A DNA stretch of 45,689 bases from Nemertoderma westbladi. Its lineage: Eukaryota > Animalia > Xenacoelomorpha. Positions 1 through 28,700 of the stretch are shown here, piece by piece; position 1 is the stretch's first letter, and every line of letters starts with the position of its first letter. Below the pieces are notes generated by a model. It had not been told where the DNA came from and did no database searches. It was given only the letters and a program-made list of their open reading frames with translations. A program made the translations under genes and the position numbers. The stretch spans positions 1 to 45,689 of the forward strand of contig JAUCBJ010001333.1 of assembly GCA_032718475.1 (NCBI GenBank), given 5' to 3'.

Positions 1-517
1 GCTTGGGTAGCTCTATCAAAAATGGATACCATCTGGAAATCAGATCTCTCCAGGCACCTGAAGACTAAGTTCTTTCGAGCCACAGTGGAAAGTGTATTTT
101 TATACGGGGGTGAGACCTGGACACTGACTAAATCACTTGAACAACGAATTGATGGTTGCTACACAAGACTACTAAGGGCAGCCCTAAACATCAGCTGGAG
201 ACAACACATGACAAACGCCGAGCTTTATGGTACAATACCACTTGTATCAACCACCCTCCGTGAACGCAGATTAAGATTCAGTGGGCACTGCTGGCGAAAT
301 AAAGACGAGGTCATACCAGATCTACTTCTCTGGCAACCAACTCATGGAAAGCGTAGTCGTGGACGACCTGCCATAACATATATAGATCAACTTGAAAGGG
401 ATACTGAACTTGGGAGAAACGAAATTGCGACAACTATGGAGAATCGGGAAGCCTGGAAGGATCTCAATTCCACTGTCCGAGTTCGCTCGACCTACTGTAG
501 TAGTAGTAGTAGTAGTA
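1..517 (+). mobile_element. 3' fragment of an RTE-like LINE (RT C-terminal region) ending in a (TAG)n microsatellite tail
   Basis: ORF 22-546 has FRATVESVFLYGGETW, YTRLLRAALNISW, RLRFSGHCWR and LLLWQPTHGKRSRGRP, typical of the C-terminus of RTE-clade ORFs. A tagtagtag run lies at ~497-517. Confidence 0.85.
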
Positions 518-1148
518 AGCATCCTTTACTGCATTGTCAGTTCTGAGTTTCTCCCAGTCATATTTGATTTGCTTACTTGTCCTGGGTTTGCTGGCTCTCA
601 AACTGAGTCTGATCTCTGCAGTCACGATTCTGTGGTCCGAACCAATTAGGTTGAACGAGCTGTATGCCTCGCAGTTGATCATGCTGTTTCTCCACTTTTT
701 GTTTATAAGGATGTAATCCAGTTGTGCTTTGGTTCCATTAGGGTATTTAAAGTTCCATAGCTTCCCCTTACTCTTTTCGAATGTGTTGTTTGTTGGTATC
801 AATTCACATTCTTCCATTAAGGTCTAAGTGTAAGCAAGCACCCATTTCTGTTCGAACTGGTATAACCCTTGATGTCTTATAGGCCAATTTGCGCATTCAT
901 GTCACCAGCAATGACTTTGCAATTGTGTTTCGGAGAATCTCCTTTATAAGTCCAGTCAGATCTTCATAAAACTTGACTGCTTGTTCTGGCTCTGAGGCAT
1001 TGGTTGGACTGTAGCAACATATAACTGTTGCCTTGGGATTCCCATCAAATGTTACGATCATAACCCTGGAATTTATAGATTCGATGTTGTTTAGGGTCTT
1101 AAGTGCAAATGGGCTTAGCAGAATTCCTACTCCATCAATGGAACTCAA
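518..1148 (-). mobile_element. Frameshifted AP-endonuclease fragment of an RTE-like LINE
   Basis: Minus-strand ORFs 897-1148 (GVGILLS, SINSRVM, VICCYSPTN) and 464-817 (QLDYILINKKWRNS, GSDHRIV) carry APE motifs in different frames. Confidence 0.85.
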
Positions 1149-3603: not shown

Positions 3604-3824
3604 TTAAAAATGTTGTGCCGGCCTGTCGAAAAAATTGCGCCGCCACAACTCCCTATCCCCCATGACTTTCGCGAGATTATCCGCATCTTCAAGGCCAGTG
3701 TCCTTTAAGATGCGTCTCAAGAAAGTCATGGGCTGTCCACCATGCTTATTTTCTCCATGAGGCTGCCAAAGTACAAGATTTTGCACAAGCTGGTCCTCAA
3801 GGCGAAAGCCATGTCCTGCGAAGC
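3604..3824 (-). mobile_element. Short 3' fragment of an RTE-like LINE, same subfamily as 10527-11430
   Basis: Encodes NLVLWQPHG..GQPMTFLRRILKDTGLED. The nucleotides align by eye with 10525-10666. Confidence 0.75.
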
Positions 3825-3862
3825 TATTTATTAAATTCTGATTTATTAATTTTATTCTGCAG

Positions 3863-5854
3863 AAATTTAATTGAGCAGCAGGTGCGCAATCTTTCTGACT
3901 TCAATCGCGCAGTACGCGGACTCACCACTGGGGGGCGTGTGAACCCCGGCGGCAAACAGGAGCCAAAGACAGCGGACCGTTCGGACGGGAACCGAACTGA
4001 AACGGACCCGGACCTTGGTGTATACTCCTCTAGGAGTATGGGGGGCGCCCCCAACCAGACCCCTTCGCCCTCTGTGAGACCCTCCCCTGCACCTTTATAT
4101 AAGTCGAGAGTTCCAGAAGCGACTAAGACTCAGCCCATTATGCACGTACCAAAGAGTCCACGGGTCGCCCCACAGCATTCCTCCCCCGCTAAAAGTCCCC
4201 TAAAATCCCCCGATTCACCCGCCAATAGTTCAGGCAATTCCTGTCTGACCCCCGATTCATTGGACGTGTCATTCAGTAGCCCAGCAACCGAGTCATTGCC
4301 TAGCAACACATCTACTCGAAGATCGGAACGAGGTCAGCCCAGAATTGAATCTAACGGCGATATACAATCCAATACTCAGTTATCTACTGCCACTACTTGT
4401 GCTACATCAGTATCAATTAACCAACCGCCTTTATTATCACAAAAGCAACCTGTTTCAATTAGCCAACCTGTAACAGTTGCTTCAGAAACAGTTAACCAAA
4501 CTGATCAATTAAAACCAGCTGTCACAGTTAACCAAACTGATCAATTAAAACCAGCTGCCAAAGTTAACCAAACTGATCAATTAAAACCAGCTGCCACAGT
4601 TAACCAAACTGATCAATTAAAACCAGCTGCCACAGTTAACCAAACTGATCATTTAAAACCGGCTGCCACAGTTAACCAAACTGATCAATTAAAACCGGCT
4701 GCCACAGTTAACAAACGCGCAAAAGCTGGTAAAGAAACGGCACCACCGCTAAACGAAACGGTCGCAACTCCCGTGACCACTCCAACACGCACAGATGTTA
4801 ATGCATCTCGTATTCCCGTGATTATGTCCAAAAACAGTGGAAATAGGGCAAACCATCGACCCGCGGACACATCTAGCCTTCCCGCAAGGACCCCAACCCA
4901 CCCTGCACCAACCCCCGCCCACACTGCACCAAACCCCACCCACACTGCACCTACCACTAACCCCCCTGCACCAACCCCTGCCCACACAGCACCAACCCCA
5001 GCTCACAGTGCACCAACACCCGCCCAACCTGCACCAACCCCCACTACCACACCACCCACCCCCGCCCATCCTGCACCAACCCCCATCCACCCTGCACCCA
5101 CCCCCACTAGCACAGCACACACCCACCCTGCACCCACCACCAACCCCCTTGCTCCAACCAACACATCCCCAGCCCCCAGACCAGACCCCTCCGACTACCG
5201 CAGACCGGTCTGCCTCCCACGTAAACCCGACTCCCCTATCGCTTCCTCCCGCGCCTCTCCCGTGGCCACCGTCGCTCCCATCGTCGTGAAACCGAAGCCG
5301 AGCGTCACCACGGCAACGACGGTCAATGAGACGCTCGCTGTCCGGGAGACCACAGTAGTCGCGGATGCATTGGTCACCAAGGATACGAGGAACATCGTCG
5401 GATACGATTCGGTTCGCGGGCTGGAAGTTCGTCGAGTGGAACGCGTTCCTCAGCCGACGGAACGCGTTCCCAACCCCGCGGAGCGCGTTATCCAACCCAC
5501 CACCGTATCGACGCCTCTAGTTAAACCGATAGACACCCCCGTAACATCCACCGACGCGGGGGTACACGTCTCCCAGGGATACAAGTCGTCGGGATTCATT
5601 CGAGTTCCGCGGAATAGTCCGGAGGAACGCCGGAGTTCCACTCCGGACGCGGCGCGGATGGTAGAGACGAACCCGGACGAGATCGAGTCGATCGGAGTCG
5701 AAGAGGTGGTGAACGTGGCCGCTAGAGGGATACTCAAACGTCGGGAATCTCCGGCGCCCTCTAGGGACGGACGAACGCACTCAGCTTTGGGTGGCTCTAT
5801 ATCGGTGGATAGAGTGAGGGATTCCTTGGAGTGCCTCCAGGTGGCGTCTAATAG
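3863..5854 (+). CDS. CEP126: Internal exon A of a CEP126/KIAA1377-like gene (upstream exons not identified)
   Basis: Acceptor ttttattctgcAG at 3861-3862 and donor AG|GTTAGT at 5855 (phase 2); the frame is that of ORF 3882-5900. It ends RGILKRR...VRDSLECLQ, resembling the CEP126 xILKK...IRDSIEL block (recalled, not searched). Confidence 0.72.
4488..4713 (+). repeat. Coding 36-bp tandem repeat, ~6 copies (TVNQTDQLKPAA)
   Basis: Unit acagttaaccaaactgatcaattaaaaccagctgcc repeats in frame. Confidence 0.95.
4890..5185 (+). repeat. Degenerate ~21-bp coding repeat, Pro/Thr/His-rich (PAPTPAH-like)
   Basis: C/A-rich stretch with recurring gcaccaacccc; the translation shows a 7-aa period. Confidence 0.85.
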
Positions 5855-6710
5855 GTTAGTTAGAAATCGATTTCTAGTAGTACCTCTAGGTGGCGTGTAA
5901 TAGGTAAGCTAAAAATGATTCTTAGGAGTGCCTTTAGGTGGCGTCTAAAGGGATAGTCAGAAAATCGCCCATGTGAACTAGTGAAGAATACCAGGATTTA
6001 CGCCCATGTGAAGAATACCAGGATTTCACTTGTCGGTCGACTTTTTATTGGAGTTTTATTTATGAAAATTTTTATTTTTTTTAATTTATCCTTATTAAAT
6101 GTTTTATAGCGCTTATTTCTGTCTTATAAGCTGTACATATACTAATTCGTTTATTGGCCCATATGAAGAATACCAGACTTCCTACCGTTATATTTCACTT
6201 TGCATGTCGCCCATGTGAAGAATACCAGGTTTTAACCAAAACATAGGTTACATAAGGACTGAATTTAACCAAAACAATAAACGAATTAGTATATGTACAG
6301 CTTATAAGACAGAAATAAGCGCTATAAAACACTTAATAAAGATAAATTTAAAAAAATAAAAAATATTCATAAATAAAACTCCAATAAAAAGTCGACCGAA
6401 AAGTGAAATCCTGGTATTCTTCACGGGCGTAAATCCTGGTATTCTTCACATGTGCCATGTGTGTAAATCCTGGTATTATCATTACATTATTCACATGGGC
6501 GGTAGAACCTCTAGGTGGCGTCTAATAGGATAGTTAGGAATGATTCGGAGTGCCTCAAGGTGGCGTCTAAAAAGTTAATTAGAAGTGGATTCCTAGTAAT
6601 ACCTTTAGAGCATCTATTAGGTTAGTTAGGAATGGATTCCTTGGAGAGTCTCTAGGTGGCGTATAATAGATTTGTTAATTCGATATGTCTTGGAATGCCA
6701 CAGGTTGGTG
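5820..6710 (+). repeat. Degenerate 48-49-bp tandem array copied from the exon A/intron junction, ~7-8 copies, interrupted by a foldback element
   Basis: Unit gattccttggagtgcctccaggtggcgtctaatag|gttagttagaaatc recurs with substitutions at 5820-5965 and 6502-6710. Confidence 0.85.
5966..6501. mobile_element. Foldback/MITE-like palindromic element with ~190-bp inverted arms
   Basis: Termini cgcccatgtgaa...ttcacatgggcg. 5966-6156 is the near reverse complement of ~6275-6501. The sub-repeat cgcccatgtgaagaataccagg recurs. No TSD seen. Confidence 0.85.
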
Positions 6711-6793
6711 TATATTCTTTCTGTGTTTTCTTTTTATGTTATTCTTTCTTTATATTAATGTATTATGTTTATTGACTTTCTTTCTTAACGCAG

Positions 6794-7328
6794 ATCCCAG
6801 AAGAAATCCGTTCGGTTTACCGACGAGAACGGTTCTAGAACGCCGCTGGCATTTTTTGACGACGCCTCCTCCGCGCATCGCTACCCTCCCAACTCTGGCC
6901 GACCCACGGTCGCCGGGGTAAACCGACCCCAGATGACCCCGACCCGCACCGTTACCATAACGACCCCGTCCTGGGACCCGCGAGCCCGGCTCTCCAAGCA
7001 GGCCCTGGCCGCTAAGGGGCCAACGCACGCCGCCGCTAGGGGGACACCATCTGGAGGCGCGGCCACCCGGAAGAAACAACAGATAGGTCTAGACATCGGT
7101 AGGGGTCCCGATGGTGACGTAACGAATGGCGACCTCGAGTTCCCCGGGCAACCAACTCAACAAAGAAACAACGTCATAAAACACAACGGCGGGTTAGATG
7201 GTGACGTCATCGGTGCTATGCAACCGGATAATCTCCAGAAAACGCCGACGGATGAGGAAATAAATATATTATGGGATAAAGTTCGCAGTTGCCTTGACCG
7301 ACGCGGTAATGTGCTGCAGTACAGCCAG
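6794..7328 (+). CDS. CEP126: Exon B of the CEP126-like gene
   Basis: Acceptor ttcttaacgCAG at 6791-6793. The phase-2 join reads ..ASNR-SQKKSVRFTDE. Contains LQKTPTDEEINILWDKVRSCL. Donor CAG|GTAGGT at 7329 (phase 0). Confidence 0.75.
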
Positions 7329-10300
7329 GTAGGTTGAGTGATAGACGCGGTAATGTGCTGCAGTACAGCCAGGTAGGTTGAGTGATAGACGCGGTAATGT
7401 GCTGCAGTACAGCCAGGTAGGTTGAGTGATAGACGCGGTAATGTGCTGCAGTACAGCCAGGTAGGTTGAGTGATAGACGCGGTAATGTGCTGCAGTACAG
7501 CCAGGTAGGTTGAGTGATAGACGCGGTAATGTGCTGCAGTACAGCCAGGTAGGTTGAGTGATAGACGCGGTAATGTGCTGCAGTACAGCCAGGTAGGTTG
7601 AGTGATAGACGCGGTAATGTGCTGCAGTACAGCCAGGTAGGTTGAGTGATAGACGCGGTAATGTGCTGCAGTACAGCCAGGTAGGTTGAGTGATAGACGC
7701 GGTAATGTGCTGCAGTACAGCCAGGTAGGTTGAGTGATAGACGCGGTAATGTGCTGCAGTACAGCCAGGTAGGTTGAGTGATAGACGCGGTAATGTGCTG
7801 CAGTACAGCCAGGTAGGTTGAGTGATAGACGCGGTAATGTGCTGCAGTACAGCCAGGTAGGTTGAGTGATAGACGCGGTAATGTACTGCAGTACAGCCAG
7901 GTAGGTTGAGTGATAGACGCGGTAATGTGCTGCAGTACAGCCAGGTAGGTTGAGTGATAGACGCGGTAATGTGCTGCAGTACAGCCAGGTAGGTTGAGTG
8001 ATAGACGCGGTAATGTGCTGCAGTACAGCCAGGTAGGTTGAGTGATAGACGCGGTAATGTGCTGCAGTACAGCCAGGTAGGTTGAGTGATAGACGCGGTA
8101 ATGTGCTGCAGTACAGCCAGGTAGGTTGAGTGATAGACGCGGTAATGTGCTGCAGTACAGCCAGGTAGGTTGAGTGATAGACGCGGTAATGTGCTGCAGT
8201 ACAGCCAGGTAGGTTGAGTGATAGACGCGGTAATGTGCTGCAGTACAGCCAGGTAGGTTGAGTGATAGACGCGGTAATGTGCTGCAGTACAGCCAGGTAG
8301 GTTGAGTGATAGACGCGGTAATGTGCTGCAGTACAGCCAGGTAGGTTGAGTGATAGACGCGGTAATGTGCTGCAGTACAGCCAGGTAGGTTGAGTGATAG
8401 ACGCGGTAATGTGCTGCAGTACAGCCAGGTAGGTTGAGTGATAGACGCGGTAATGTGCTGCAGTACAGCCAGGTAGGTTGAGTGATAGACGCGGTAATGT
8501 GCTGCAGTACAGCCAGGTAGGTTGAGTGATAGACGCGGTAATGTGCTGCAGTACAGCCAGGTAGGTTGAGTGATAGACGCGGTAATGTGCTGCAGTACAG
8601 CCAGGTAGGTTGAGTGATAGACGCGGTAATGTGCTGCAGTACAGCCAGGTAGGTTGAGTGATAGACGCGGTAATGTGCTGCAGTACAGCCAGGTAGGTTG
8701 AGTGATAGACGCGGTAATGTGCTGCAGTACAGCCAGGTAGGTTGAGTGATAGACGCGGTAATGTGCTGCAGTACAGCCAGGTAGGTTGAGTGATAGACGC
8801 GGTAATGTGCTGCAGTACAGCCAGGTAGGTTGAGTGATAGACGCGGTAATGTGCTGCAGTACAGCCAGGTAGGTTGAGTGATAGACGCGGTAATGTGCTG
8901 CAGTACAGCCAGGTAGGTTGAGTGATAGACGCGGTAATGTGCTGCAGTACAGCCAGGTAGGTTGAGTGATAGACGCGGTAATGTGCTGCAGTACAGCCAG
9001 GTAGGTTGAGTGATAGACGCGGTAATGTGCTGCAGTACAGCCAGGTAGGTTGAGTGATAGACGCGGTAATGTGCTGCAGTACAGCCAGGTAGGTTGAGTG
9101 ATAGACGCGGTAATGTGCTGCAGTACAGCCAGGTAGGTTGAGTGATAGACGCGGTAATGTGCTGCAGTACAGCCAGGTAGGTTGAGTGACAGACGCGGTA
9201 ATGTGCTGCAGTACAGCCAGGTAGGTTGAGTGATAGACGCGGTAATGTGCTGCAGTACAGCCAGGTAGGTTGAGTGATAGACGCGGTAATGTGCTGCAGT
9301 ACAGCCAGGTAGGTTGAGTGATAGACGCGGTAATGTGCTGCAGTACAGCCAGGTAGGTTGAGTGATAGACGCGGTAATGTGCTGCAGTACAGCCAGGTAG
9401 GTTGAGTGATAGACGCGGTAATGTGCTGCAGTACAGCCAGGTAGGTTGAGTGATAGACGCGGTAATGTGCTGCAGTACAGCCAGGTAGGTTGAGTGATAG
9501 ACGCGGTAATGTGCTGCAGTACAGCCAGGTAGGTTGAGTGATAGACGCGGTAATGTGCTGCAGTACAGCCAGGTAGGTTGAGTGATAGACGCGGTAATGT
9601 GCTGCAGTACAGCCAGGTAGGTTGAGTGATAGACGCGGTAATGTGCTGCAGTACAGCCAGGTAGGTTGAGTGATAGACGCGGTAATGTGCTGCAGTACAG
9701 CCAGGTAGGTTGAGTGATAGACGCGGTAATGTGCTGCAGTACAGCCAGGTAGGTTGAGTGATAGACGCGGTAATGTGCTGCAGTACAGCCAGGTAGGTTG
9801 AGTGATAGACGCGGTAATGTGCTGCAGTACAGCCAGGTAGGTTGAGTGATAGACGCGGTAATGTGCTGCAGTACAGCCAGGTAGGTTGAGTGATAGACGC
9901 GGTAATGTGCTGCAGTACAGCCAGGTAGGTTGAGTGATAGACGCGGTAATGTGCTGCAGTACAGCCAGGTAGGTTGAGTGATAGACGCGGTAATGTGCTG
10001 CAGTACAGCCAGGTAGGTTGAGTGATAGACGCGGTAATGTGCTGCAGTACAGCCAGGTAGGTTGAGTGATAGACGCGGTAATGTGCTGCAGTACAGCCAG
10101 GTAGGTTGAGTGATAGACGCGGTAATGTGCTGCAGTACAGCCAGGTAGGTTGAGTGATAGACGCGGTAATGTGCTGCAGTACAGCCAGGTAGGTTGAGTG
10201 ATAGACGCGGCAATGTGCTGCAGTACAGCCAGGTAGGTTGAGTGATAGACGCGGTAATGTGCTGCAGTACAGCCAGGTAGGTTGAGTGATAGACGCGGTA

Positions 10301-10526
10301 ATGTGCTGCAGTACAGCCAGGTAGGTTGAGTGATAGACGCGGTAATGTGCTGCAGTACAGCCAGGTAGGTTGAGTGATAGACGCGGTAATGTGCTGCAGT
10401 ACAGCCAGGTAGGTTGAGTGATAGACGCGGTAATGTGCTGCAGTACAGCCAGGTAGGTTGAGTGATAGACGCGGTAATGTGCTGCAGTACAGCCAGGTAG
10501 GTTGAGTGATAAACGCGGTAATGTGC
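7300..10526 (+). repeat. Near-perfect 44-bp tandem array, ~73 copies, spanning the exon B donor
   Basis: Unit gacgcggtaatgtgctgcagtacagccag|gtaggttgagtgata. I saw substitutions only at 7885, 9190, 10211 and 10512. Confidence 0.98.
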
Positions 10527-11555
10527 ATCTTCAAGTCCAGTGTCCTTTAGGAGGCGTCTCACGAAAGTCATGGGCTGTCAACCATGCTTATTTTTTCATG
10601 GGGCTGCCAAAGCACAAGATTATGCACTGGCTTGTCCTCAGGGCGAAACCAATGTCCTGCAAAGCGGAGGCGGCTTTGTTCTAGTGTCAAGCTTGGGGGA
10701 ACCAATGAGACACCTCCAATGTTATATAGTGTCTGGTTGGAGATGTGTGCATTGTACTTGACACAGTGAACCCGGCGTAGCATTCTTGTGAATGTGTCAT
10801 CCAGAGATTTGGTGTCCTCAGCAGTTAGAGCCCAGCATGGACACTCATAGAGGAGTACTGGAACTACTGCTGCTCTAAATAATCGAACCTTAAGTTTCCG
10901 ATTAATTCTGTGTGACTTCCAAATTCTGGAAAGCATATTCAAGGCTGCCCATGCCTTTCCCTTACGTATTCGAAGGTCCTCACCTGACTTCCGGATCCAT
11001 GATCCCAGGTTACAGAAGTCATCCACATGCTCAAGCATACCATCCTTTGAGCTTATGCTCATCCTATCAGAGACTTGCTGGAGGACTTTCAAAGTTAACT
11101 GTCAAAATGTTGGTCTTTTTGGAGTTAATAAAAAGATCAACACTAGAAGCAGCATGTTCTAATGAGCTGAGGAGCCGTTGGGCTCCCTCTAGTGATTCTG
11201 AGAGTACTCCTAAGTCATCAGCAAAGTCTAGATCAGTTAGGTACTTGGCAGGATTTCCTCGACTTCTGGAGCCAGTAGGTGGAGTTATCATCACCCCATC
11301 ACCATTATGATGATCTAAGGACATGCGTAGAACATAGTCAACCACAATTATGAACAAGAATGGCGCAAGTGTGTCTCCCTGGAGGACGCCCCATAACACT
11401 TCCAATGGTTCTGTGTCACCGTCAGCAGTATGCCACATGCTCAAGCATACCATCCTTTGAGCTTATGCTCATGCGATCACACAGTTCCTAAGGACTTCCA
11501 AACTTAACTGTCAAAATTTTGGTGATTCTGACTTCTGAGAGTACTCCTAAATCCA
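10527..11555 (-). mobile_element. Degenerate RTE-like LINE RT fragment plus a short second rearranged copy (~11432-11555)
   Basis: GVLQGDTLAPFLF, LTDLDFADDL, INSKKT, LFRAAVVPVLLY and RLRFAGHWFR across frameshifts. 11432-11555 repeats parts of 11022-11215. Confidence 0.9.
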
Positions 11556-11632
11556 TTAAATTCGGGTCGATAACGGTTAGACTTACTACTGATTGGCAAT
11601 CTCCTCGTTTATCTCAGCTGTTTCCTTTCCAG

Positions 11633-11774
11633 ATGACGTCAGACGTTTGGGCCCAACGAGTTTCGGCAGCCAATCAGAGGAACCCGCCAACGTTAACGCA
11701 GCACTATATAGATGGGAGTAATTTAATACCGGGAATCGGTAGACAGAATACAGTGGCACCAGTGCAGCACAATG
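11633..11774 (+). CDS. CEP126: Exon C of the CEP126-like gene (shortest form, first donor)
   Basis: Acceptor tttcctttccAG at 11631-11632, phase 0. Reads MTSDVWAQR...HYIDGSNL...VQHN. Donor G|GTAAGG at 11775 (phase 1). Confidence 0.72.
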
Positions 11775-13203
11775 GTAAGGGAGTGGGTATACAGATTACA
11801 GCTGCACCAGTGCAGCACAATGGTAAGGGAGTGGGTAGACAGAATACAGTAGCACCAGTGCAGCACAATGGTAAGGGAATGGGTAGACAGAATACAGTAG
11901 CACCAGTGCAGCACAATGGTAAGGGAGTGGGTAGACAGAATACAGTAGCACCAGTGCAGCACAATGGTAAGGGAGTGGGTAGACAGAATACAGTAGCACC
12001 AGTGCAGCACAATGGTAAGGGAGTGGGTATACAGAATACAGTAGCACCAGTGCAGCACAATGGTAAGGGAGTGGGTAGACAGAATACAGTAGCACCAGTG
12101 CAGCACAATGGTAAGGGAGTGGGTATACAGAATACAGTAGCACCAGTGCAGCACAATGGTAAGGGAGTGGGTATACAGAATACAGTAGCACCAGTGCAGC
12201 ACAATGGTAAGGGAGTGGGTAGACAGAATACAGTAGCACCAGTGCAGCACAATGGTAAGGGAGTGGGTATACAGAATACAGCTGCACCAGTGCAGCACAA
12301 TGGTAAGGGAGTGGGTATACAGAATACAGTAGCACCAGTGCAGCACAATGGTAAGGGAGTGGGTAGACAGAATACTGTAGCATCAGTGCAGCACAATGGT
12401 AAGGGAGTGGGTAAACAGAATACAGTAGCATTAGTGCAGCACAATGGTAAGGGAGTGGGTAGACAGAATACAGTAGCACCAGTGCAGCACAATGGTAAGG
12501 GAGTGGGTAGACAGAATACAGTAGCATCAGTGCAGCACAATGGTAAGGGAGTGGGTAGACAGAATACAGTAGCACCAGTGCAGCACAATCGTAAGGGAGT
12601 GGGTAGACAGAATACAGTAGCACCAGTGCAGCACAATGGTAAGGGAGTGGGTAGACAGAATACAGTAGCATCAGTGCAGCACAATGGTAAGGGAGTGGGT
12701 AAACAGAATACAGTAGCACCAGTGCAGCACAATGGTAAGGGAGTGGGTATACAGAATACAGTAGCACCAGTGCAGCACAATGGTAAGGGAGTGGGTATAC
12801 AGAATACAGTGGCACCAGTGCAGCACAATGGTAAGGGAGTGGGTAGACAGAATACAGCTGCACCAGTGCAGCACAATGGTAAGGGAGTGGGTATACAGAA
12901 TACAGTAGCACCAGTGCAGCACAATGGTAAGGGAGTGGGTATACAGAATACAGTGGCACCAGTGCAGCACAATGGTAAGGGAGTGGGTATACAGAATACA
13001 GTGGCACCAGTGCAGCACAATGGTAAGGGAGTGGGTAGACAGAATACAGTAGCACCAGTGCAGCACAATGGTAAGGGAGTGGGTAGACAGAATACAGTAG
13101 CATCAGTGCAGCACAATGGTAAGGGAGTGGGTAGACAGAATACAATAGCACCAGTGCAGCACAATGGTAAGGGAGTGGGTATGCAGAATACAGCCGCACC
13201 AGT
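11738..13203 (+). repeat. 48-bp tandem array, ~30.5 copies, spanning the exon C donor and open in frame
   Basis: Unit ggtagacagaatacagtagcaccagtgcagcacaatg|gtaagggagtg. Donors run from 11775 to 13167, a distance of 29 x 48 bp. Confidence 0.98.
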
Positions 13204-13481
13204 TGTGTAATATAATACCAGTATTCTTTCAGTTTTAGTATGTCCTAGTCTTGCATTCGGTCCTTATCGGTACCGCAGTTTAAGGGATACATTGAAATGT
13301 TCTTATATAGTCAATAATGATTTTCTCATTAATAAAATTATGTGTATATTTAATATGAGAAGGCTTTTGACCCAATATGAATATAGTATCATAGTGTATG
13401 TATTATTTATAGTCGAATGATATATATTTTGTTTTAACTAATATTATTATATATTTAACTATATGTGTTTCTCATTTTCAG

Positions 13482-13606
13482 TTTCTCCTTTTAAATATAA
13501 GAAGCAAGTTGCCCAGGACCTGACCAATTACCGCCTCAGTACTGGTCTTTTACAAAGACAGCAACAGTCGCGCACGGGTGCCATGGCAACAGCTCTACCA
13601 ACACCG
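13482..13606 (+). CDS. CEP126: Exon D of the CEP126-like gene
   Basis: Acceptor ctcattttcAG ending 13481. The phase-1 join is open: VSPFKYKKQVAQDLTNYRLSTGLLQRQQQSRTGAMATALPTP. Consensus donor GTAAGT at 13607 (phase 0). Confidence 0.72.
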
Positions 13607-17004: not shown

Positions 17005-17205
17005 ACCTTTCCTTCAATTGTTAACAACATCGTTTAGAAAATGCCGTCCCTGTAACTTGCTCCTTTCCCTCAATTGTTAACATCGTTTATTGTTTTGGTT
17101 AGAAAATGCCATCTCTGTAACTTGCTCCTTTCCATCAATTGGTAACAAAATCGTTAATTGTTTCGATTTGAAAATTTCGTCTCTATAACTTGCTCCTTTC
17201 CATTA
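17005..17205. repeat. Three degenerate ~60-70-bp tandem copies
   Basis: agaaaatgccgtccctgtaacttgctcctttcc-like motif occurs three times. Confidence 0.7.
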
Positions 17206-17427: not shown

Positions 17428-18246
17428 TCGACCCCTTAGAACCATAACCAGCCATGTCCACATTTTGTCAAAATTGAGATAGGAATGCTGAACAGAAAGA
17501 AGTACTATCCATGAAAAAGGTCTCAAGTCCATCCATATCTGCATTCAACTAGCACATCTGGCAAGTCGGTAATTTCCATGTCCAAACCATGAATTTCTGA
17601 TAAATGAGCCATGTCCAATGCTTTTACAATAATGAGCCATGTCCAATGCTTTTACAATAATGAGCCATGTCCAATGCTTTTACAATAATGAGCCATGTTC
17701 ATACAATAATGAGCCATGTTCAATGCTTTTACAATAATGAGCCATGTTCATACAATAATGAGTCATGTCCAATGCTTTTACAATAATGAGCCATGTTCAA
17801 TGCTTTTACAATAATGAGCCATGTTCATTGCTTTTACAATAATGAGCCATGTCCAATGCTTTTACAATAATGAGCCATGTTCATTGCTTTTACAATAATG
17901 AGCCATGTTCATTGCTTTTACAATAATGAGCCATGTCCATGGACGTGGCTCATTTTGTCACATATATATTTTACAAATAGTTGGGATTTCAATTATGTAA
18001 GAATGAGCCATGTCCAAAAATTTTAGTAGTATAGTTTTGGAAAATTGGCTGGTTTTCACAATTGGCAACACATATTCCAAACTTTTTGATGTCACACCGT
18101 GTAGTAGCGGTTGGGCCATGAATTTACATTGAAATAACCTTGTTATAATGATGTGTCGATTTATAGCGGCACTTAAAAAACTTTAAACGCGTTTTTCTCG
18201 GAATGACAAAATGTGGACATGGCTTGTTATGGTTCTAAAGAGGTGA
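17428..18246. mobile_element. Non-autonomous TIR DNA transposon with an internal 28-bp minisatellite
   Basis: Left ccccttagaaccataaccagccatgtccacattttgtca matches right tgacaaaatgtggacatggcttgttatggttctaaagagg. About 12 copies of aatgagccatgtccaatgcttttacaat lie at 17603-17940. Confidence 0.85.
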
Positions 18247-18654: not shown

Positions 18655-19974
18655 TCAGTTAAAGGAATACCATTGGGTTACCGCGATACCTGGACCCGCT
18701 ACAACTTTCCTCCAATAGGTTTGTGTGCGCGCTTGTTTCCCTGGCAACGTTATAGTTCCCACTTTGGCCGTCCCAATCAGATGCTGTTCCTCCATCACCT
18801 GGACAACCAATGACAAGTGACCTCGTTCCGCCGTTTGCGATACATTAAAGGTGATGACGTCACTCCATACGGGATTGCCGGTTTCGCTGTGTCGGGCAGT
18901 ACAACGCTGACTGTCTGCGGGTTTGGAGGCGTTTGAACTGTAAAGTTTCGCGATTACGAAGTATTTCTTGGTTCCGAGTGAGTTGTGCGGCAAATTGAGT
19001 CCCTTTCGAATAGTAACTCGGAGTATTCTCGACAGCGTCAGGTACTGAAGGGTGAGTAGCAGCTGGGGAGGGCATCTCACTACCGGGTCCCGGAAGTCCC
19101 CCCGTTGTAAACTTGTCCCATCTTCGTCCCACTCCCTCTTAACGTCTCTGAGACTCAACGACGCTTCCTTAGCGACCGTCTCCATACCGTTGTTACCACG
19201 GGTTACCAGCAAGCGAATCAGCACTCGTCCCCGCTCGACGTCCCTTTCCGTCAACCCCGAGAACTGGAAGCACTGGCGGAATGACGTAATAGCGTTGCTA
19301 GGTAACAACGGGGTAACCGCTTCGGTGGCCTCGAATTCGTCGAAGGTCGGCACGATTTTAAGTTTCACTCTGTACGTGACGTCACACTGCGCGTCGACGT
19401 TTACCAGATGTATTATTGCCAAGGTTACGGTCCACCGTTCGTCTTCCTCGGAGTCAAACACTACGAGACAATCGATGTAAGGCGTACTGCTGTCTTCGGT
19501 TAGACGTCTTTTTATTGGCTGGCCGTCTTTGTCCAATCGGATGTTGTCGTCCGAACCTCTTTTGCTGTCCTTCTCGCGGTTCCCCAACAATCGTTTCATT
19601 CCGACTAGAACAGATGAATTACTTTCAGTTTCGCTGACAATCTTTATCGACTTTGTTTTGTCTTGCGTCGTCGATTGCGTTGCTGTTGTTTTGTTTCTAT
19701 TTTTCGTTCCGGTATCTAGCGAGTTGTCTGCCGATTCGCCGCTATCGCTGTTTCCGTGGTAACGCGACGTGACCCGTTCGGTTCGCGTTGGGCTAGTGGC
19801 CCAGCTGTAGGGGCTCACCCCGGGGGGTAGAATGAAGGATATACTCCGGCGGTCGCGGTCCCGTCTCGATCGACTCCTACTGCGTCGGTAGACCAGCCGG
19901 GCCGCCGCCAACACCACAGCAACCAATACAACAGTCACTATTATGGAGACTACGGTAGCAACCACGGTCACCAT
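18655..19974 (-). CDS. Intronless synaptotagmin-like protein (N-terminal TM, linker, two C2-like domains), 439 aa, nested antisense in the host intron
   Basis: Hydrophobic N-terminus followed by a basic stop-transfer stretch. C2B-like PQLLLTLQYL..RILRVTIRKGLNL, GNPVWSDVITFNV and final TYWRKVVAGPGIAVTQWYSF. ATG sits in an accATGg context. Confidence 0.85.
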   Translation of the reverse strand: MVTVVATVVSIIVTVVLVAVVLAAARLVYRRSRSRSRRDRDRRSISFILPPGVSPYSWATSPTRTERVTSRYHGNSDSGESADNSLDTGTKNRNKTTATQSTTQDKTKSIKIVSETESNSSVLVGMKRLLGNREKDSKRGSDDNIRLDKDGQPIKRRLTEDSSTPYIDCLVVFDSEEDERWTVTLAIIHLVNVDAQCDVTYRVKLKIVPTFDEFEATEAVTPLLPSNAITSFRQCFQFSGLTERDVERGRVLIRLLVTRGNNGMETVAKEASLSLRDVKREWDEDGTSLQRGDFRDPVVRCPPQLLLTLQYLTLSRILRVTIRKGLNLPHNSLGTKKYFVIAKLYSSNASKPADSQRCTARHSETGNPVWSDVITFNVSQTAERGHLSLVVQVMEEQHLIGTAKVGTITLPGKQARTQTYWRKVVAGPGIAVTQWYSFN

Positions 19975-20639
19975 GGTTTCAGTTTATACAAAGTTTGCTA
20001 ATAATCAATGAATAATCAATACTTATATAGTATTCTATAATAATTAAATATTTAATATTTTTTCTGGATGAATGAAAAAAAAAAAAAAAAAAATTAAATT
20101 TACCGTTTAATATTGTATTTTTATTATTTATTACAACTTCTATATGGTAATCCTTAAAAATGTGTTAAAAATTCGTCCAATTTCTTTCTCAAAAAATAAT
20201 AAATAAGTAATTGGAAAGTTTTTAACGAAATAAAGTTTATTTTTACAGTAATAAACTTTAACAAAATAAATACCGGTTTGGTTAAAGTATACTAATAGGA
20301 CGGTGGAATTTAAATCCTGTTTTAATATAATTATTTGAAACTAATATCCAGTTAATACTTCATTAACACAATTATTATATTAAATCTGCAATAATAAATG
20401 ATAATTTATTGTATTTCCCCTCACGTGTGGAACCTATGTTTCCGTTATCTCTCACGATTAGGTGGTTTTTTAGTCTTAACAAATAAACTGTAATCAGTTG
20501 TAGGTTTGTATTACTCATATTGGTGCATTTATTATCGACACAAGATATGCTATGTACAAACCAACCTGGCCATCATGTGTTACACGGGGTTCTGTCTAAA
20601 ATATGTGGGATTGTTATGAACTGCAAACATACGTGCTGT

Positions 20640-22140: not shown

Positions 22141-22539
22141 TGTTTCTTAGGAAAATCTTTTCGTATAAAATAATATATTCTGATCTATTTTTTATTTGTA
22201 TTTTTTACATTTAATTTTTACTAATTTTTTGTTCTATTCCGTATAATGAATATCGTGGTATTGTAAGATATACACACATAAGGGAATATACACATCACCT
22301 ATACAAGGTTTAATAATAATCCTAACCGTACGAACGACAAACGTCAGATACTGTGTAAATTACAGGTACCTGTAGTGTTAACACCGGTACTACCTGCAGT
22401 AAATCATTGAAAAATTGTTGCTAGGATAATTAAATAGCGGCATATTTAAGGGGGGGGGGGGGGGGGGGGGGGGGTGGGGGTGGCGCTACTTCAATAATTT
22501 TTTGCAAAATTTTTTTATTTCATCTAGAGCAGATTTTTA

Positions 22540-22930: not shown

Positions 22931-24412
22931 GCGGGAAGGTTCAAACTTTAAAGGCAATTTATCTCGGAATGGAATTTTTTCATTCCTGCGAAATTAAAAA
23001 TGTTACTCTTCTGCCAACTTTTAATATTTTTTGATGAAATTTGGACACAGTAATCACAAGCTTGGTTTGGTGTCTTCAAACGTATTGGACAGAATCTCAA
23101 AATTTTGATCCTAACTCATTTTACTGGCTTCGAAATATGGAAAATTCTAATTTTTTGAAAAAAAAAATTAAAATAATTAATTAATTTGGTAATAAAATGT
23201 GAAATAATCAATATCATAAAAATTTTACCAATAATTTTATTCAACACTATATCCTAATTATGTATACGAAATAACTAGTTATATAACTAATGTTTGTTCG
23301 AAGAGTGTTTTTTAGTGTTTGCCAGGGGTTACTCGCTTTACTGTATATATTGTTATCGTAATAAATTGATGTTTTTATCCTTTGTTCCAATCAAATTTAC
23401 TTTCAACTACCCCTGGTTGTTGCTAGGGAAATGGTACTTTGTTGCGATGAAAACTTTTTCCCTGTTTAAATTGTTATACTAATCAAGTTATTATCAACGG
23501 GATTGTTTCTTTATGGCGAGTTTAATAATAGATGAGACCAAATTCACCCGGTTGATATTAAAATGTCACCAATGTAGCTAGGGAACTAGTCAATTATTTT
23601 ACTACACAGGGTCAGTTTAATCTACCTACTGTATAGTGACATTTTTCTGCTTTTGTCCTGTAATTAACGACTTATCCGTGTTTTAGTCTTAAGCGACGAT
23701 ACGAAGATGAATTCGGTATAAACTCTTACTACATACAGCACCCTCTACCGCTGTAGAGATAAACATTAAAGTATGATTTGTGAATTCTCTAATTGACGAT
23801 AGATGGCGAGCTATTATCGCCTAGCAACATAATATACAATTTATAATACATATGTATTTCAAACTGTAGGCTTATGTCAATAACCAAACCTAGGCAATGC
23901 ATACTGTAATGTATTAATTAAGATTATAAAATTTTGAAAGAATCAGTTTTTGCACGTTTATTTACCTTTAGGAATAAATTAATAAACGATATGTGCGGAA
24001 TATATAAACGTTTTTATTTTCATTTAATCTGTTAATAATACGTTATTTATTGGGTCTCAACAGTACGTAGTTACCGTTACTGTAAATAGGCCTATACTAT
24101 AAAATGTGATACTGCATCCCATAGCCTAGTCAAAATAGGCCCAGTCCAGTCTTAGATAAATTGCAACACACTGTACTAGTAGTTTTTCGTAGTTTTTCTA
24201 GTTTTAACGGTAGTTGTTATATTTATTAGTTATTTAGGTTATATTTAACACCCTATCCCAAATCACCCCATAATTCGGATTGTAAACACACCATGGCAAC
24301 ATAATAGTCTGACAACGATAATCTATCTTTGACCTAGCCCCCATAGACCCCCCCCCCCCCCACCCCCCCCCTCCCCCCCCTTGACTCACTAGAGAATACG
24401 TTTTTAAACACG

Positions 24413-25278: not shown

Positions 25279-25702
25279 CCTAAACTATAGATACGACCCG
25301 CCAAGCTGCTGCAAATCCCTTAAATTTAGTTATTTCTCTTAGATAGAACCCCTGAAACAATAGGTCTAGCTCGTCGAAAGTACTTGGCCCTAAATAAAAT
25401 AATGTCCTCTTTCAGATGATACAAATAAAAATGTAATAATAGCTCCAGTAGTTTTTGAGATATTAAGAATTTCTGGCACCCATATTTTTTCCTCACGATA
25501 TTTTTACTCGCGATATTGTTACACAATTACCACGTATTTCTGTACTGTCGGCATCTTGGTAGGTTATATATTGTCATTAATCAACCTAATTATATTATAA
25601 TCAAATAATATTTATATTCATTTACCGTTATTCTTGATTTATTCATAAATTATATACTTAATGATGGAGTGAAAAACTTGATTTTAAGCACAAAACGTGA
25701 CA

Positions 25703-28700
25703 ATGATTAACGTGCGAGTGAACAGCCCTCCCAGAGGCCCACTCACAGAGAGATCTCAAATTCCTAAACATCCCGCTATACAGGATGGGGTGAGAGCCAA
25801 GAGTGGAAATCCGGCTGGCACACGGATGAAAAGGAATAAGGCCCCGCGCAATCCTAGATTAGTAAACCCCGCGAAGTTGGAAGGTTTATCGGAAGTCAAA
25901 CTCAAACCATCGGTATACATGCAGAGGCAACTAATGACCACTGAACAACTACTCAATTCAACTGTTGAGGTGCAAGTCACTAAAATTATTCAACTCTTGG
26001 ATATTGGTCAAAAATCCTTTCAAAAATTGTGTTCATTACCTCTTGAGAGTTGCCTCTTTCAACCATTCCCGTCTGAGGTGACATTCCAGCACTGCCAACC
26101 TTGTCAACCATACCAGGTCGGGTTGCAGCTACGCAATATGGACCACGTTCCAAGATTAGTTAAAGTCAATTGTGAAGATTCGTCTTATTTCAAGATCGTT
26201 AGACCTCCTCATGCCGGAGATAAGGTAGCTCCAGGAATGGCTGTCACTTATAAAATTGTCTTTATAGGCGATGAATCCAAAGACTACTATTATGAAGTTG
26301 AAGTTTTTACTGAACGTGAACTTTTTATTGTACCAGTTCGAGTAATTGGCCCCCGAGCGATACTAGACTTTCCTGATGATGTTGATATGTTAATGTGCCC
26401 TGTGAAACACACAACAACCAGAACATTGCTGATACGAAACTTGGGAAACAGGGAAGCCAGGTTTAATGTCGAGTCGCATTTACCTTTTCAGGTTGAGCCA
26501 GCCTCTGCTACTCTAGATGTTGGGCACTGTATGCAGGTAAACGTTGCTTTCCATCCTCTCAACACTGGCGAACATACCACTTATATCATTGTCCATTATG
26601 ACACTGGTGAAGATGTATACATGAAGGTTTTTGCTTCAGCCAGTGATGCTAATATCCGCATAGATAAGTCGACAATTCATATGCCTAAAACATATATTGG
26701 TTTGAGAAGTGAAAGATTTTTCAGCATCTCCAATAGAAGTGATATTATTGTAAACTTTCAATGGAAGCGTTATGAAACAGAAGCTGAGGAAGATGCTGAG
26801 ATAAATCAAGTTGTGAGTAGTTTACACAAAGCTTTAAGCAGGGATAATCTTGACTCCGAAAACGAAGAAGACAAGCTTTTTACGGAAAGGCAACGTATAA
26901 AACAATTAACTCCAAGTAAGGATGATTTCGCCTTTCTGGACAATGAGTATTCTATCACTCCTATCAATGGTGAGATATGGCCTGGCCAATCTGCTGAATG
27001 TAGCATTGTATTTCAACCAGAGGTGGTTGTTGAATCAAATCTTGCCGCTTGGTTGGATGTGTCAGGCGTGGAGAAGAGACTAGGTGTCAAGATATATGGT
27101 GAGGGTGTCGGTCCATGGTGTGAGTTGAGTTATGATGAATTGGATGTTGGTTATGTGTTTATGAATTCATCTTCTTCTTATGAGATTATCCTAAAAAATC
27201 GAGGTCAGATAGATGCGTATTATAGAATTCTATCTGACAACTCATTCTGTCAGTTTTCTCCTGAGGAGAATCCAGTTAATGCCGGAGGGTATCAGGCAAT
27301 TCAATTAATGGTTTGCTCTCCAGTAATTGGCGTCTTTAAAGAAGAATTTTTCTTCGAAATAAACGACAGTCCTGACAAACTGAGATTATCTGTTACAGGG
27401 ACAATCGCTGGGCCTACATTTAATTTTGATGTCAGTGAAATCAATTTTGGAAACGTTGCTTTTGGATTTCCACAAACTAAGGTTTTTGAACTTACAAATA
27501 CATCGTATATTCCAATGAATTTTGAGCTAAGAGTCCCTACAGATGGTAGTGATGTTGTGGCTGTTGAAGCAGAAAGTGATGAGGCAGTTTGGAATTATAA
27601 TATAGACCCATTCACTAAACCGAAAGAGTTTACCATTATTCCAGATAGTGGAACTTTAGCCCCAATGGATTCGTGCCCAGTTACTATAACTATGTTGAGC
27701 AATACGGCAAAAAAATATGTGAATGACACACTAGTTGTCAGAATTGTTGATATGGCACAAGACGTTGCCTTGCTGCCTATTAAATGTCGTTGTTATGTCC
27801 CAGAATTATATATTACAAACCCAATTATAGAATATGGGAAATGTTTTATGCATTCTCCAACTGCGGGATTTCTTACCATTACTAACCCAACCGAATTTCC
27901 TGCTAAATACAACTTAATTGAGCAAAGCCATATGGAGTCATCAATGATTCTTTACGAATCTTCCGCCCCAAGTGGTATTATTGCAGCAAATTCCTCCTTT
28001 GATCTTCCAATTACAATTAGAGCACAATTGAAGGACCACCTACAGGTTGGGGCATATTTGTCTACATTTGGTTCACCAGATCGACCAATGCAAGTTATCC
28101 TTAGGGCATTTGGTCTAGGTCCCGTCGTGTTTGTAGCATCAAATGAATTGGATTATGGTACTATTCCTGTGCTCACAGAAGCCATCAAACGAGTAACCCT
28201 TGAGAACGAATCACCCATAGCTGCTACCTATACCTGTTTTTTAATGCAAAGCACAAATTCCGTGTTTTCAGTGTATCCTGCCCAAGGAATATTACATCCC
28301 AAGTCAACCCTGCAGATAAACGTTGTTTGTTTTATTAATGACGACATTAAATGCAAAGATCAATTAAAAATAGTGTTTGTGGATGGGTTAACCCATGTTA
28401 TCCCATTGTATGCAAAAGGAATTGGGACCACTATTGAGATCACCCCGAAGTTAGTCCCTTCTTATGACTTGGGGCCCCAATTCAGTACTTTACCAATTAA
28501 AAATGAACTACTTATAAAGAATTCTGGCAGAAGAGCGCAATGTCTTATATTCAAAACTAAAGGATATTCATTATCTAAGACTTCGCAAGTGACTATGGAC
28601 CCATTTGATATTAAGAAATCTGAAAGTGGTGTTTCTTTATCACCAACATTTGCTATAAACCCATGCCGCATAGAATTACAACCAGGGGAATCGATTACTG

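What the first reader, a model, noticed from the sequence alone, without database searches (positions are those of the whole stretch)
5820..13203. Three consecutive splice donors of one gene are each amplified into their own exon/intron-junction tandem array
Seen: the arrays at 5820-6710, 7300-10526 and 11738-13203 have unrelated sequences but one design. Each unit is 44-49 bp, made of ~28-37 nt of exon tail, the GT donor and ~11-16 nt of intron. The first copy is the real junction and the array extends into the intron. Divergence differs (heavily degenerate, near-perfect, intermediate), suggesting separate events of different ages. No acceptor shows this. Inference: a recurrent process targeted to 5' splice sites (for example linked to splicing, Pol II pausing, R-loops or RNA-templated repair) seeds satellites and inflates introns, leaving the gene with over 100 decoy donors. 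I cannot verify how far this is already described.
Basis: partly seen in the sequence, partly recalled or inferred. Interest (0 to 1): 0.9.

Follow-up and report, generated by a model that had tools for sequence, protein, structure and literature searches.

The report
Splice-donor mirage minisatellites in one gene
Three neighbouring introns of one animal gene each begin with a head-to-tail repeat of the exon end plus its splice signal (about 8, 73 and 31 copies), a repeat type already described as 'mirage' minisatellites in lancelets and in the human F7 gene; the one spliced transcript copy seen uses the first signal at the two arrays it covers, so the arrays are likely tolerated by-products of repeat-prone DNA rather than a new splice-site-targeted process.

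Summary
Tandem Repeats Finder finds 7300-10526 (44 bp x 73.3, 99%) and 11731-13203 (48 bp x 30.7, 96%). A third, decayed array has 7 clear copies, 73-83% like the first. It lies at 5820-5963 and 6502-6730, split by a 538-bp foldback element.

Each array starts 29-44 nt inside an exon and repeats the GT donor. One contig of run X4 joins 7328 to 11633 and leaves again at 11774 with no mismatch. So the real donors 2 and 3 are the first copies. Donor 1 (5854) rests only on reading phase, consensus and stop-codon logic.

The kind is already in print:
- 'mirages' in lancelet Adh3, troponin C, globin and PGBD5 genes (PMC3087553, PMC3902484);
- the human F7 IVS7 minisatellite, where 5'-to-3' scanning picks the first donor (PMC1557585).

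This scan's own unchecked notes list 29 similar findings in at least 10 genomes.

A process aimed at donors is not needed. With arrays and transposons collapsed, the introns are 77, 87 and 282 nt. Under a simple tolerance filter, three donor-spanning arrays then have a chance of about 1.5-4%. I file this as a new member of a known kind, of modest interest.

The parts
3901..5854 (+). Exon 1, the 3' part of a 744-codon open frame (3666..5900). The coding start is not determined, and the frame's 5' end overlaps an antisense LINE piece.
   Evidence: ORF list. DNA contigs of X1 and X2 cover it. No transcript evidence.
4488..4716 (+). In-frame coding minisatellite in exon 1: 36 bp x 6.4, 12 codons per unit.
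   Evidence: TRF; translation in the ORF list.
4890..5159 (+). In-frame coding minisatellite in exon 1: 21/63-bp periods, proline/threonine/alanine-rich.
   Evidence: TRF; ORF translation.
5820..5963 (+). Array 1, left part: copies 1-3 of a ~49-bp unit. Copy 1 holds the inferred real donor 1 (exon ends at 5854, GT at 5855-5856).
   Evidence: the repeat finder D1; unit alignment; phase analysis. The read-through frame meets TAA at 5898-5900.
5964..6501 (.). Foldback (MITE-like) element inserted into array 1. Its words stand at very high depth in runs X1, X2 and X4.
   Evidence: Inverted repeats I1-I12, with arms of 88 nt at 97% and 80 nt at 94%. Depths of 3e4-3e5 against about 20 beside it.
6502..6730 (+). 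Array 1, right part: copies 4-7 and a weak 8th. The homologous donor GT is kept only in copy 6 here.
6794..7328 (+). Exon 2. The acceptor cag at 6791-6793 is inferred. The exon end at 7328 is shown by the spliced contig.
   Evidence: Sequence and phase. X4 contig of 2054 letters, record 26-258 on 7096-7328.
7300..10526 (+). Array 2: 44 bp x 73.3. Copy 1 is the last 29 nt of exon 2 plus GTAGGTTGAGTGATA. There are 72 identical decoy donors CAG|GTAGGT.
   Evidence: TRF; unit table; donor count. DNA contigs of X1 and X2 stop at 7329, and array words stand at raised depth in both.
10524..11462 (-). Antisense LINE fragment in intron 2, cut at its 3' end exactly where array 2 stops.
   Evidence: RVT_1 and DUF6451 hits. 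Alignment to the LINE copy at 3604-3900 shows homology starting at GCATCTTCAAG in both, while only the other copy runs on to its stop codon.
11633..11774 (+). Exon 3 (142 nt). Both ends are shown by the spliced contig.
   Evidence: X4 contig record 255-400 on 11629-11774 with 0 other letters. The 4 letters CCAG fit both sides, and only the cut 7328|11633 gives GT..AG.
11731..13203 (+). Array 3: 48 bp x 30.7. Copy 1 is the last 44 nt of exon 3 plus GTAA. There are 28 further ATG|GTAAGG sites. The unit is 16 codons, and the frame stays open through the whole array.
   Evidence: TRF; unit table; ORF 11492..13210; donor count.
13482..13606 (+). Exon 4 (inferred): acceptor ag at 13480-13481 in phase 1, donor CCG|GTAAGT in phase 0. 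No array follows it.
   Evidence: Sequence and phase. No transcript evidence laid.

Best explanation
These are three independent 'mirage'-type minisatellites: 44-49-bp units that span an exon end and its 5' splice site and are repeated into the intron. They likely arose by ordinary slippage or unequal exchange in a repeat-prone gene. They likely persist because the spliceosome takes the first donor, as one spliced contig shows for arrays 2 and 3.

Shown:
- the arrays, their sharp left edges inside exons and their different decay;
- use of the first copy at donors 2 and 3.

Inferred:
- The gene makes tandem duplications often. It also carries two in-frame coding minisatellites.
- Selection removes duplications that change the mRNA.
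- Duplications that start in the exon tail and run into a short intron leave the mRNA unchanged, because a 5'-to-3' search picks the most upstream donor (shown for human F7, not for this organism).
- Later exchange expands and homogenises the arrays.
- Unused copies decay freely, as in array 1.
For: 1. Spliced contig. X4's contig of 2054 letters lies on 7096-7328 (record 26-258) and on 11629-11774 (record 255-400) with no mismatch. It therefore joins 7328|11633 and leaves at 11774.
2. Identical decoys. Array 2's first unit is identical to 69 others. Position, not sequence, sets the used donor apart. This matches the F7 IVS7 result that identical pseudo-sites stay silent under 5'-to-3' scanning (PMC1557585, abstract and discussion read).
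3. Frame safety. All five arrays of this gene are frame-safe. The exonic ones have periods of 36 and 21/63, all divisible by 3. The 49-, 44- and 48-bp ones all include the donor.
4. Penalty for later donors. Use of a later donor would meet a stop at once in arrays 1 and 2: TAA at 5898-5900, and GTA GGT TGA after 7328.
5. No selection on decoys. In the old array 1 the homologous GT survives in only 3 of 7 clear copies (1, 2 and 6; copy 5 keeps a weak one).
6. Short ancestral introns. With arrays and transposons collapsed, the introns are 77, 87 and 282 nt, so donor-spanning starts are a large share of tolerated starts.
7. Same kind in print. PMC3087553 and PMC3902484 (passages read) report tandem repeats spanning exon-intron boundaries that do not disturb splicing and vary in length.
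8. Independent DNA. DNA contigs from two studies (X1, X2) stop at the same array edges (7329, 11785), and array words stand at raised depth in both.
Against: - Three of three arrays lie on donors and none on acceptors. Under my filter model this is only 1.5-4% likely, and that model rests on assumed ancestral intron lengths.
- The donor sits late in each unit (fractions 0.71, 0.66 and 0.92). A uniform model gives that a chance of about 4%.
- Only one contig of one run shows the splicing. Minor use of later donors, or transcripts removed by nonsense-mediated decay, cannot be seen in contigs.
- The tool labels X4 'DNA?', which is a guess. A processed retrocopy would give the same join, though it too would record a spliced mRNA.
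- Donor 1 and the acceptor of exon 2 have no transcript support.
- First-donor scanning has been tested only in mammalian cells.
Confidence: 0.72

Rival explanations
1. A mutational process aimed at 5' splice sites seeds these arrays. Transcription-, splicing- or R-loop-linked breaks or template switches at donors would start tandem duplication there more often than elsewhere.
For: - Three consecutive donors of one gene carry arrays of unrelated sequence and different age, and no acceptor does.
- The exon share of each unit exceeds the intron share in all three.
- An unchecked note of this scan (e1-8147634) reports an excess at exon ends but not at exon starts in another genome.
Against:
- The filter model already gives 1.5-4%, and the window was picked after the fact from a very large scan.
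- Published mirages, and other notes of this scan, include acceptor-spanning arrays (PMC3087553; e1-7908560, e1-9014556 and e1-7931418).
- The same gene also makes arrays inside exon 1, far from any junction.
- The units show no unusual single-strand DNA folding: z = -0.96, -0.73 and -1.49.
Confidence: 0.12
2. The arrays are kept because they do something. They could load many U1 snRNPs on the young transcript. Array 3 could offer in-frame alternative donors that lengthen the protein by 16 residues per unit.
For: - Array 3's unit is 16 codons, and the frame stays open for all 30.7 copies.
- 70 of 73 units of array 2 are identical.
Against: - An open frame over one 16-codon unit is expected about 46% of the time by chance (my arithmetic: (61/64)^16).
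- Near-identity is equally what recent expansion or homogenisation gives.
- In the old array 1 most decoy donors have decayed.
- The one spliced contig uses the first donor of array 3.
Confidence: 0.08
3. Array 3 began as a coding minisatellite, like those in exon 1, and became intronic when the donor inside its unit was activated (intronisation).
For: - 44 of the unit's 48 nt match the exon tail, and only GTAA is intronic.
- The unit is in frame without stops.
- The gene has other coding minisatellites.
- Human cases of repeat-driven intron formation at exon-intron boundaries are reported (PMC2812944, passages read).
Against: - The frame closes 5 nt after the array (stop at 13208-13210).
- 278 nt of A+T-rich unique sequence with its own pyrimidine tract and acceptor follow the array.
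- This reading does not fit arrays 1 and 2, whose periods are not multiples of 3 and which hold stops.
Confidence: 0.06
4. The arrays are assembly artefacts.
For: Long perfect repeats are error-prone in assemblies, and no read that spans an array was seen.
Against: - Contigs of X1 and of X2 (another study; it differs from the window at 16 places within 729 letters) end at the same array edges.
- Both hold array words at depths well above the flanks: 971 and 211 against about 23 and 14 for array 2.
- Copy number itself is not verified.
Confidence: 0.02

Closest known systems
'Mirage' minisatellites of lancelets (Adh3; troponin C; globins BflGb6 and BflGb9; PGBD5). Read as passages of PMC3087553 and PMC3902484. 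The original paper, Canestro et al. 2002 (PMC117041), is not held.
   Same: - Tandem repeats whose unit spans an exon-intron boundary and carries the splice signal.
- The unit size is in range: Adh3 units are given as 10-72 bp.
- The mRNA is spliced normally.
- Edge copies diverge while inner copies are homogenised.
   Different: - The organism is probably not a lancelet. The very abundant LINE of intron 2 is only 43-45% like Branchiostoma proteins, and HYDIN sits on a long, unplaced branch.
- The arrays are far longer (73 and 31 copies against 3-6 in BflGb6).
- Three consecutive donors are affected.
- Length polymorphism is not shown here.
Human F7 IVS7 37-bp VNTR (PMC1557585; abstract and discussion read).
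   Same: - The first unit spans the exon-intron boundary.
- Downstream pseudo-donors are identical in sequence and silent.
- The most upstream donor is used.
   Different: - F7 has 5-9 units; here there are 73 and 31.
- The scanning mechanism was shown with 50 constructs in mammalian cells; here it is only inferred from one contig.
Intron gain by tandem duplication of an AGGT-holding exon piece (Rogers model; cited in PMC3087553 and PMC2812944; cases in PMC2891723 and PMC4974935 seen only as search listings).
   Same: Tandem duplication of exon sequence that holds a donor-like AG|GT.
   Different: In that model the intron runs from the GT of one copy to the AG of the next. Here the acceptors lie in unique sequence, 63 nt, about 1.1 kb and 278 nt beyond the arrays.

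Membership tests
Mirage minisatellite (tandem duplication of an exon-intron boundary) | Head-to-tail repeat with a minisatellite-size unit | tested here: met
   Units of 44 bp x 73.3 and 48 bp x 30.7, and about 49 bp x 7-8.
Mirage minisatellite (tandem duplication of an exon-intron boundary) | The unit spans an exon-intron boundary and carries the splice signal | tested here: met
   Units hold 29-44 nt of exon tail plus the GT donor. The boundaries of arrays 2 and 3 are fixed by the spliced contig. The boundary of array 1 is inferred from phase.
Mirage minisatellite (tandem duplication of an exon-intron boundary) | Regular splicing is not disturbed; the authentic site at the array's edge is used | tested here: met
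   One contig joins 7328|11633 and leaves at 11774. Minor isoforms could not be seen. Array 1 was not tested.
Mirage minisatellite (tandem duplication of an exon-intron boundary) | Length instability or polymorphism between haplotypes | tested here: inconclusive
   The depth of array words relative to the flanks differs between X1 and X2. The tool warns that such depth is no copy number.
F7-IVS7-type donor minisatellite with first-donor scanning | Pseudo-donors identical to the authentic donor remain unused | tested here: met
   72 decoys are identical to donor 2, and the spliced contig uses the first. The evidence is a single contig.
F7-IVS7-type donor minisatellite with first-donor scanning | Pseudo-donors are functional when the upstream ones are destroyed (5'-to-3' scanning) | not testable with these tools
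   Needs minigene mutagenesis as in PMC1557585.
Intron created by tandem duplication (Rogers model) | The intron is bounded by the GT of one copy and the AG of a later copy, so its length is a multiple of the unit | tested here: not met
   The acceptors at 6793, 11632 and 13481 lie in unique sequence beyond the arrays.

The most novel reading that the evidence does not exclude
Junction-spanning minisatellites are not just tolerated but are born preferentially at 5' splice sites. A transcription- or splicing-coupled break or template-switch process would be active in certain hot-spot genes of many marine invertebrates. It would make donors a genome-wide seed of satellites and of intron growth.
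Probability: 0.1. Interest if true: 0.75.

Novelty: new member of a known kind. Interest (0 to 1): 0.3.

Why it matters
The locus is a clean natural experiment. At donor 2 the spliceosome faces 73 identical donors, and the one transcript copy seen uses the first. That extends the first-donor picture, proven only for human F7 in mammalian cells, to a distant and fast-evolving animal. It also shows how such arrays can turn introns of likely under 300 nt into introns of 0.9-4.3 kb.

Taken alone it adds an example, not a principle. The wider question is whether donors are hit more often than a tolerance filter predicts, across the many genomes in which this scan keeps meeting such arrays. That question is open and testable, and no genome-wide treatment turned up in my three literature searches.

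Tried and rejected
- Whole genome: none is held, so no genome-wide test of array edges against junctions was possible.
- Sequencing runs: no RNA holder is listed. X4 is labelled 'DNA?' and X6 'RNA?', both guesses.
- X6 and X7 (other organisms) gave only transposon matches.
- Cover in X4: exon 1, intron 1 and most of exon 2 have none. I draw nothing from that.
- X4's contig starts at 7096 after 25 letters that do not fit. An alternative first exon, a spliced leader or a chimeric contig are all possible, and this stays unresolved.
- Downstream exons beyond 13606 could not be mapped from sequence.
- Gene identity:
  - exons 1 and 2 have no Pfam family;
  - the Atlas gave no usable hit;
  - only 2 weak hits (E 1.7e-5 and 4.3e-4) turned up among 1.84 billion representatives.
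- Taxon:
  - the best HYDIN hits are 39% identical over residues 100-1100 and 25-43% over the trimmed full alignment;
  - a FastTree of 21 sequences that I chose from 114 leaves the window on a long branch, with support of 0.18-0.45;
  - the best LINE hit is 52%, and Branchiostoma proteins reach 43-45%;
  - the C2-domain ORF has no hit;
  - Rfam gave 0 matches and ARAGORN 0 tRNAs;
  - this scan holds no notes on this genome and no look-alike stretches.
- DNA folding of the units is not unusual.
- A shared motif among the three units is not supported.
- The mouse pseudoautosomal preprint proved irrelevant.
- Canestro et al. 2002 could not be read.
- Supplements of PMC3087553 (mirage alignments) were not opened.


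Full report
WHAT IS THERE

The window is animal DNA with GT-AG introns, LINE fragments and a foldback element. No whole genome is held for it.

- 7300-10526: period 44, 73.3 copies, 99% matches;
- 11731-13203: period 48, 30.7 copies, 96% matches.

Unit by unit, 70 of the 73 full units of array 2 are identical, the first one included. The units of array 3 are 92-100% like their consensus, with the first at 94%. In both arrays the sequence just upstream of the first unit is at random similarity (25% and 15%), so the left edges are sharp.

The third array was not reported by TRF at default settings. The repeat finder gives 6 copies at 74-83% identity to the first. My alignment gives 7 copies at 73-83% plus a weak 8th at 53%. 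A 538-bp foldback element (5964-6501; arms of 88 nt at 97% and 80 nt at 94% complementarity) is inserted in it. Its words stand at depths of 3e4-3e5 in three runs, against about 20 beside it.

The three units are unrelated to each other. Shuffles reaching the observed alignment score numbered 82, 192 and 7 of 300.

GENE MODEL

The sequence and the stop-to-stop frames give this model:
- A long frame ends at ATAG|GTTAGT (exon end 5854, phase 2).
- It resumes after cag at 6793 (exon 2, 6794-7328), which ends at CAG|GTAGGT in phase 0.
- Exon 3 is 11633-11774 and ends at ATG|GTAAGG in phase 1.
- Exon 4 is 13482-13606 and ends at CCG|GTAAGT.

All phases fit. Each array begins inside the exon, 35, 29 and 44 nt before the donor, and repeats the donor into the intron. 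Exon 4's donor and the three acceptors carry no array.

TRANSCRIPT EVIDENCE

No run is on record as RNA. One contig of run X4 (2054 letters, depth 30.8) nevertheless behaves as a transcript:
- It lies on 7096-7328 with its letters 26-258.
- It lies on 11629-11774 with its letters 255-400, with no mismatch.
- The four shared letters (CCAG) fit both sides, and only the cut 7328|11633 leaves GT..AG.
- The contig then leaves the stretch at 11774.

So the donors in use are the first copies of arrays 2 and 3. This holds whether X4 is RNA or holds a processed copy.

DNA contigs of X1 and X2 (two studies) stop at 7329 and 11785, where repeated words begin. Array words stand at raised depth in both. 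Donor 1 and the acceptor of exon 2 have no such support.

CONSEQUENCES OF THE DECOYS

Sites with at least 7 of 9 consensus matches number 73 in array 2, 29 in array 3 and a few in array 1, which makes about 103 decoys.
- Reading on from donor 1 meets TAA at 5898-5900.
- Reading on from donor 2 meets TGA in the third codon.
- Array 3 stays in frame (16 codons per unit) with no stop.
- In the old array 1 the homologous GT survives in only 3 of 7 clear copies. This argues against selection for the decoys.

WHAT IT IS

The literature search shows the same thing described in lancelets as 'mirages'. [quoted passage not shown] They vary in length and do not disturb splicing. They occur at both 5' and 3' boundaries (PMC3087553 and PMC3902484, passages read). 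The original Adh3 paper is not held.

The human F7 gene has a 37-bp minisatellite whose first unit spans the exon 7-IVS7 boundary. Its identical pseudo-donors are functional but silent, because selection follows a 5'-to-3' scan that takes the most upstream site (PMC1557585, abstract and discussion). Human repeats at exon-intron boundaries that reshape introns are also reported (PMC2812944, passages).

This scan's own unchecked notes list 29 similar findings in at least 10 genomes, among them three donor arrays in one sea-urchin gene.

HOW IT LIKELY WORKS (inference)

The gene is repeat-prone. It holds five of the window's seven sizeable arrays. Two lie inside exon 1, with periods of 36 and 21/63 that are divisible by 3. 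The three arrays whose periods need not be divisible by 3 all include a donor. Every array that survives therefore leaves the reading frame intact.

With arrays and transposons collapsed, the introns are 77, 87 and 282 nt. If 44-49-bp duplications start at random, and only intron-internal, donor-spanning and acceptor-spanning ones are tolerated, donor-spanning ones make up 0.37, 0.32 and 0.13 of the tolerated starts. The product is 0.015. If acceptor-spanning ones are not tolerated, the product is 0.04.

That is uncommon, but it is to be expected somewhere in a scan of this size. The estimate assumes that nothing else was lost from these introns. The LINE in intron 2 is cut at its 3' end exactly at the right edge of array 2, so at least one deletion did occur there.

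Unit folding as single-stranded DNA is unremarkable.

WHAT STAYS OPEN

- Whether donors are hit more often than tolerance predicts.
- Whether later donors are used at low level.
- The true copy numbers.
- The gene's identity: no Pfam family, no usable Atlas hit and two weak hits among 1.84 billion representatives.
- The organism. HYDIN is at best 39-43% identical to any protein found and sits on a long, unplaced branch. The abundant LINE is 43-45% like Branchiostoma proteins. A lancelet is therefore unlikely, but no taxon can be named.

VERDICT

The finding is a new member of a known kind, and its interest is modest.

Noticed in passing
window 25688-41236 (+): One uninterrupted open frame of 5182 codons encodes a full-length HYDIN-like protein (HYDIN/CFA65 Ig-like, MSP and ASH domains). 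An intron-free 15.5-kb HYDIN is unusual for an animal. It is 25-43% identical to the 20 homologues I aligned and sits on a long branch.
   Followed up: partly
window 5964-6501: A foldback, MITE-like element is inserted in array 1. Its words stand at depths thousands of times the single-copy level in runs X1, X2 and X4, so it is a very abundant family in this species.
   Followed up: partly
window 10524-11462 (-), also 3604-3900 (-) and 1-546 (+): These are LINE fragments (RVT_1, DUF6451) of a family at extreme depth in the DNA runs. The copy in intron 2 lacks its last ~26 codons and 3' end, and abuts array 2 with 2-3 shared letters. This points to a deletion at the array's edge.
   Followed up: partly
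window 7096 (start of the X4 contig's match): The spliced contig matches only from 7096, inside exon 2, after 25 letters that fit nothing in the stretch laid. It could be an alternative first exon, a trans-spliced leader or a chimeric contig.
   Followed up: no
window 17030-17203 and 17603-17939: Two further minisatellites (65 bp x 2.6; 28 bp x 12.5) lie in sequence where I could map no exon. Not every array of the window is known to sit on a junction.
   Followed up: no
window 18655-19983 (-): A 442-codon open frame has a predicted membrane helix near its start and one C2 domain (E 4.1e-08). The word-indexed protein search found no relative.
   Followed up: partly
window 22450-22480 and 24348-24380: A run of 31 G and a run of 33 C lie 1.9 kb apart on the same strand, upstream of the HYDIN frame.
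   Followed up: no
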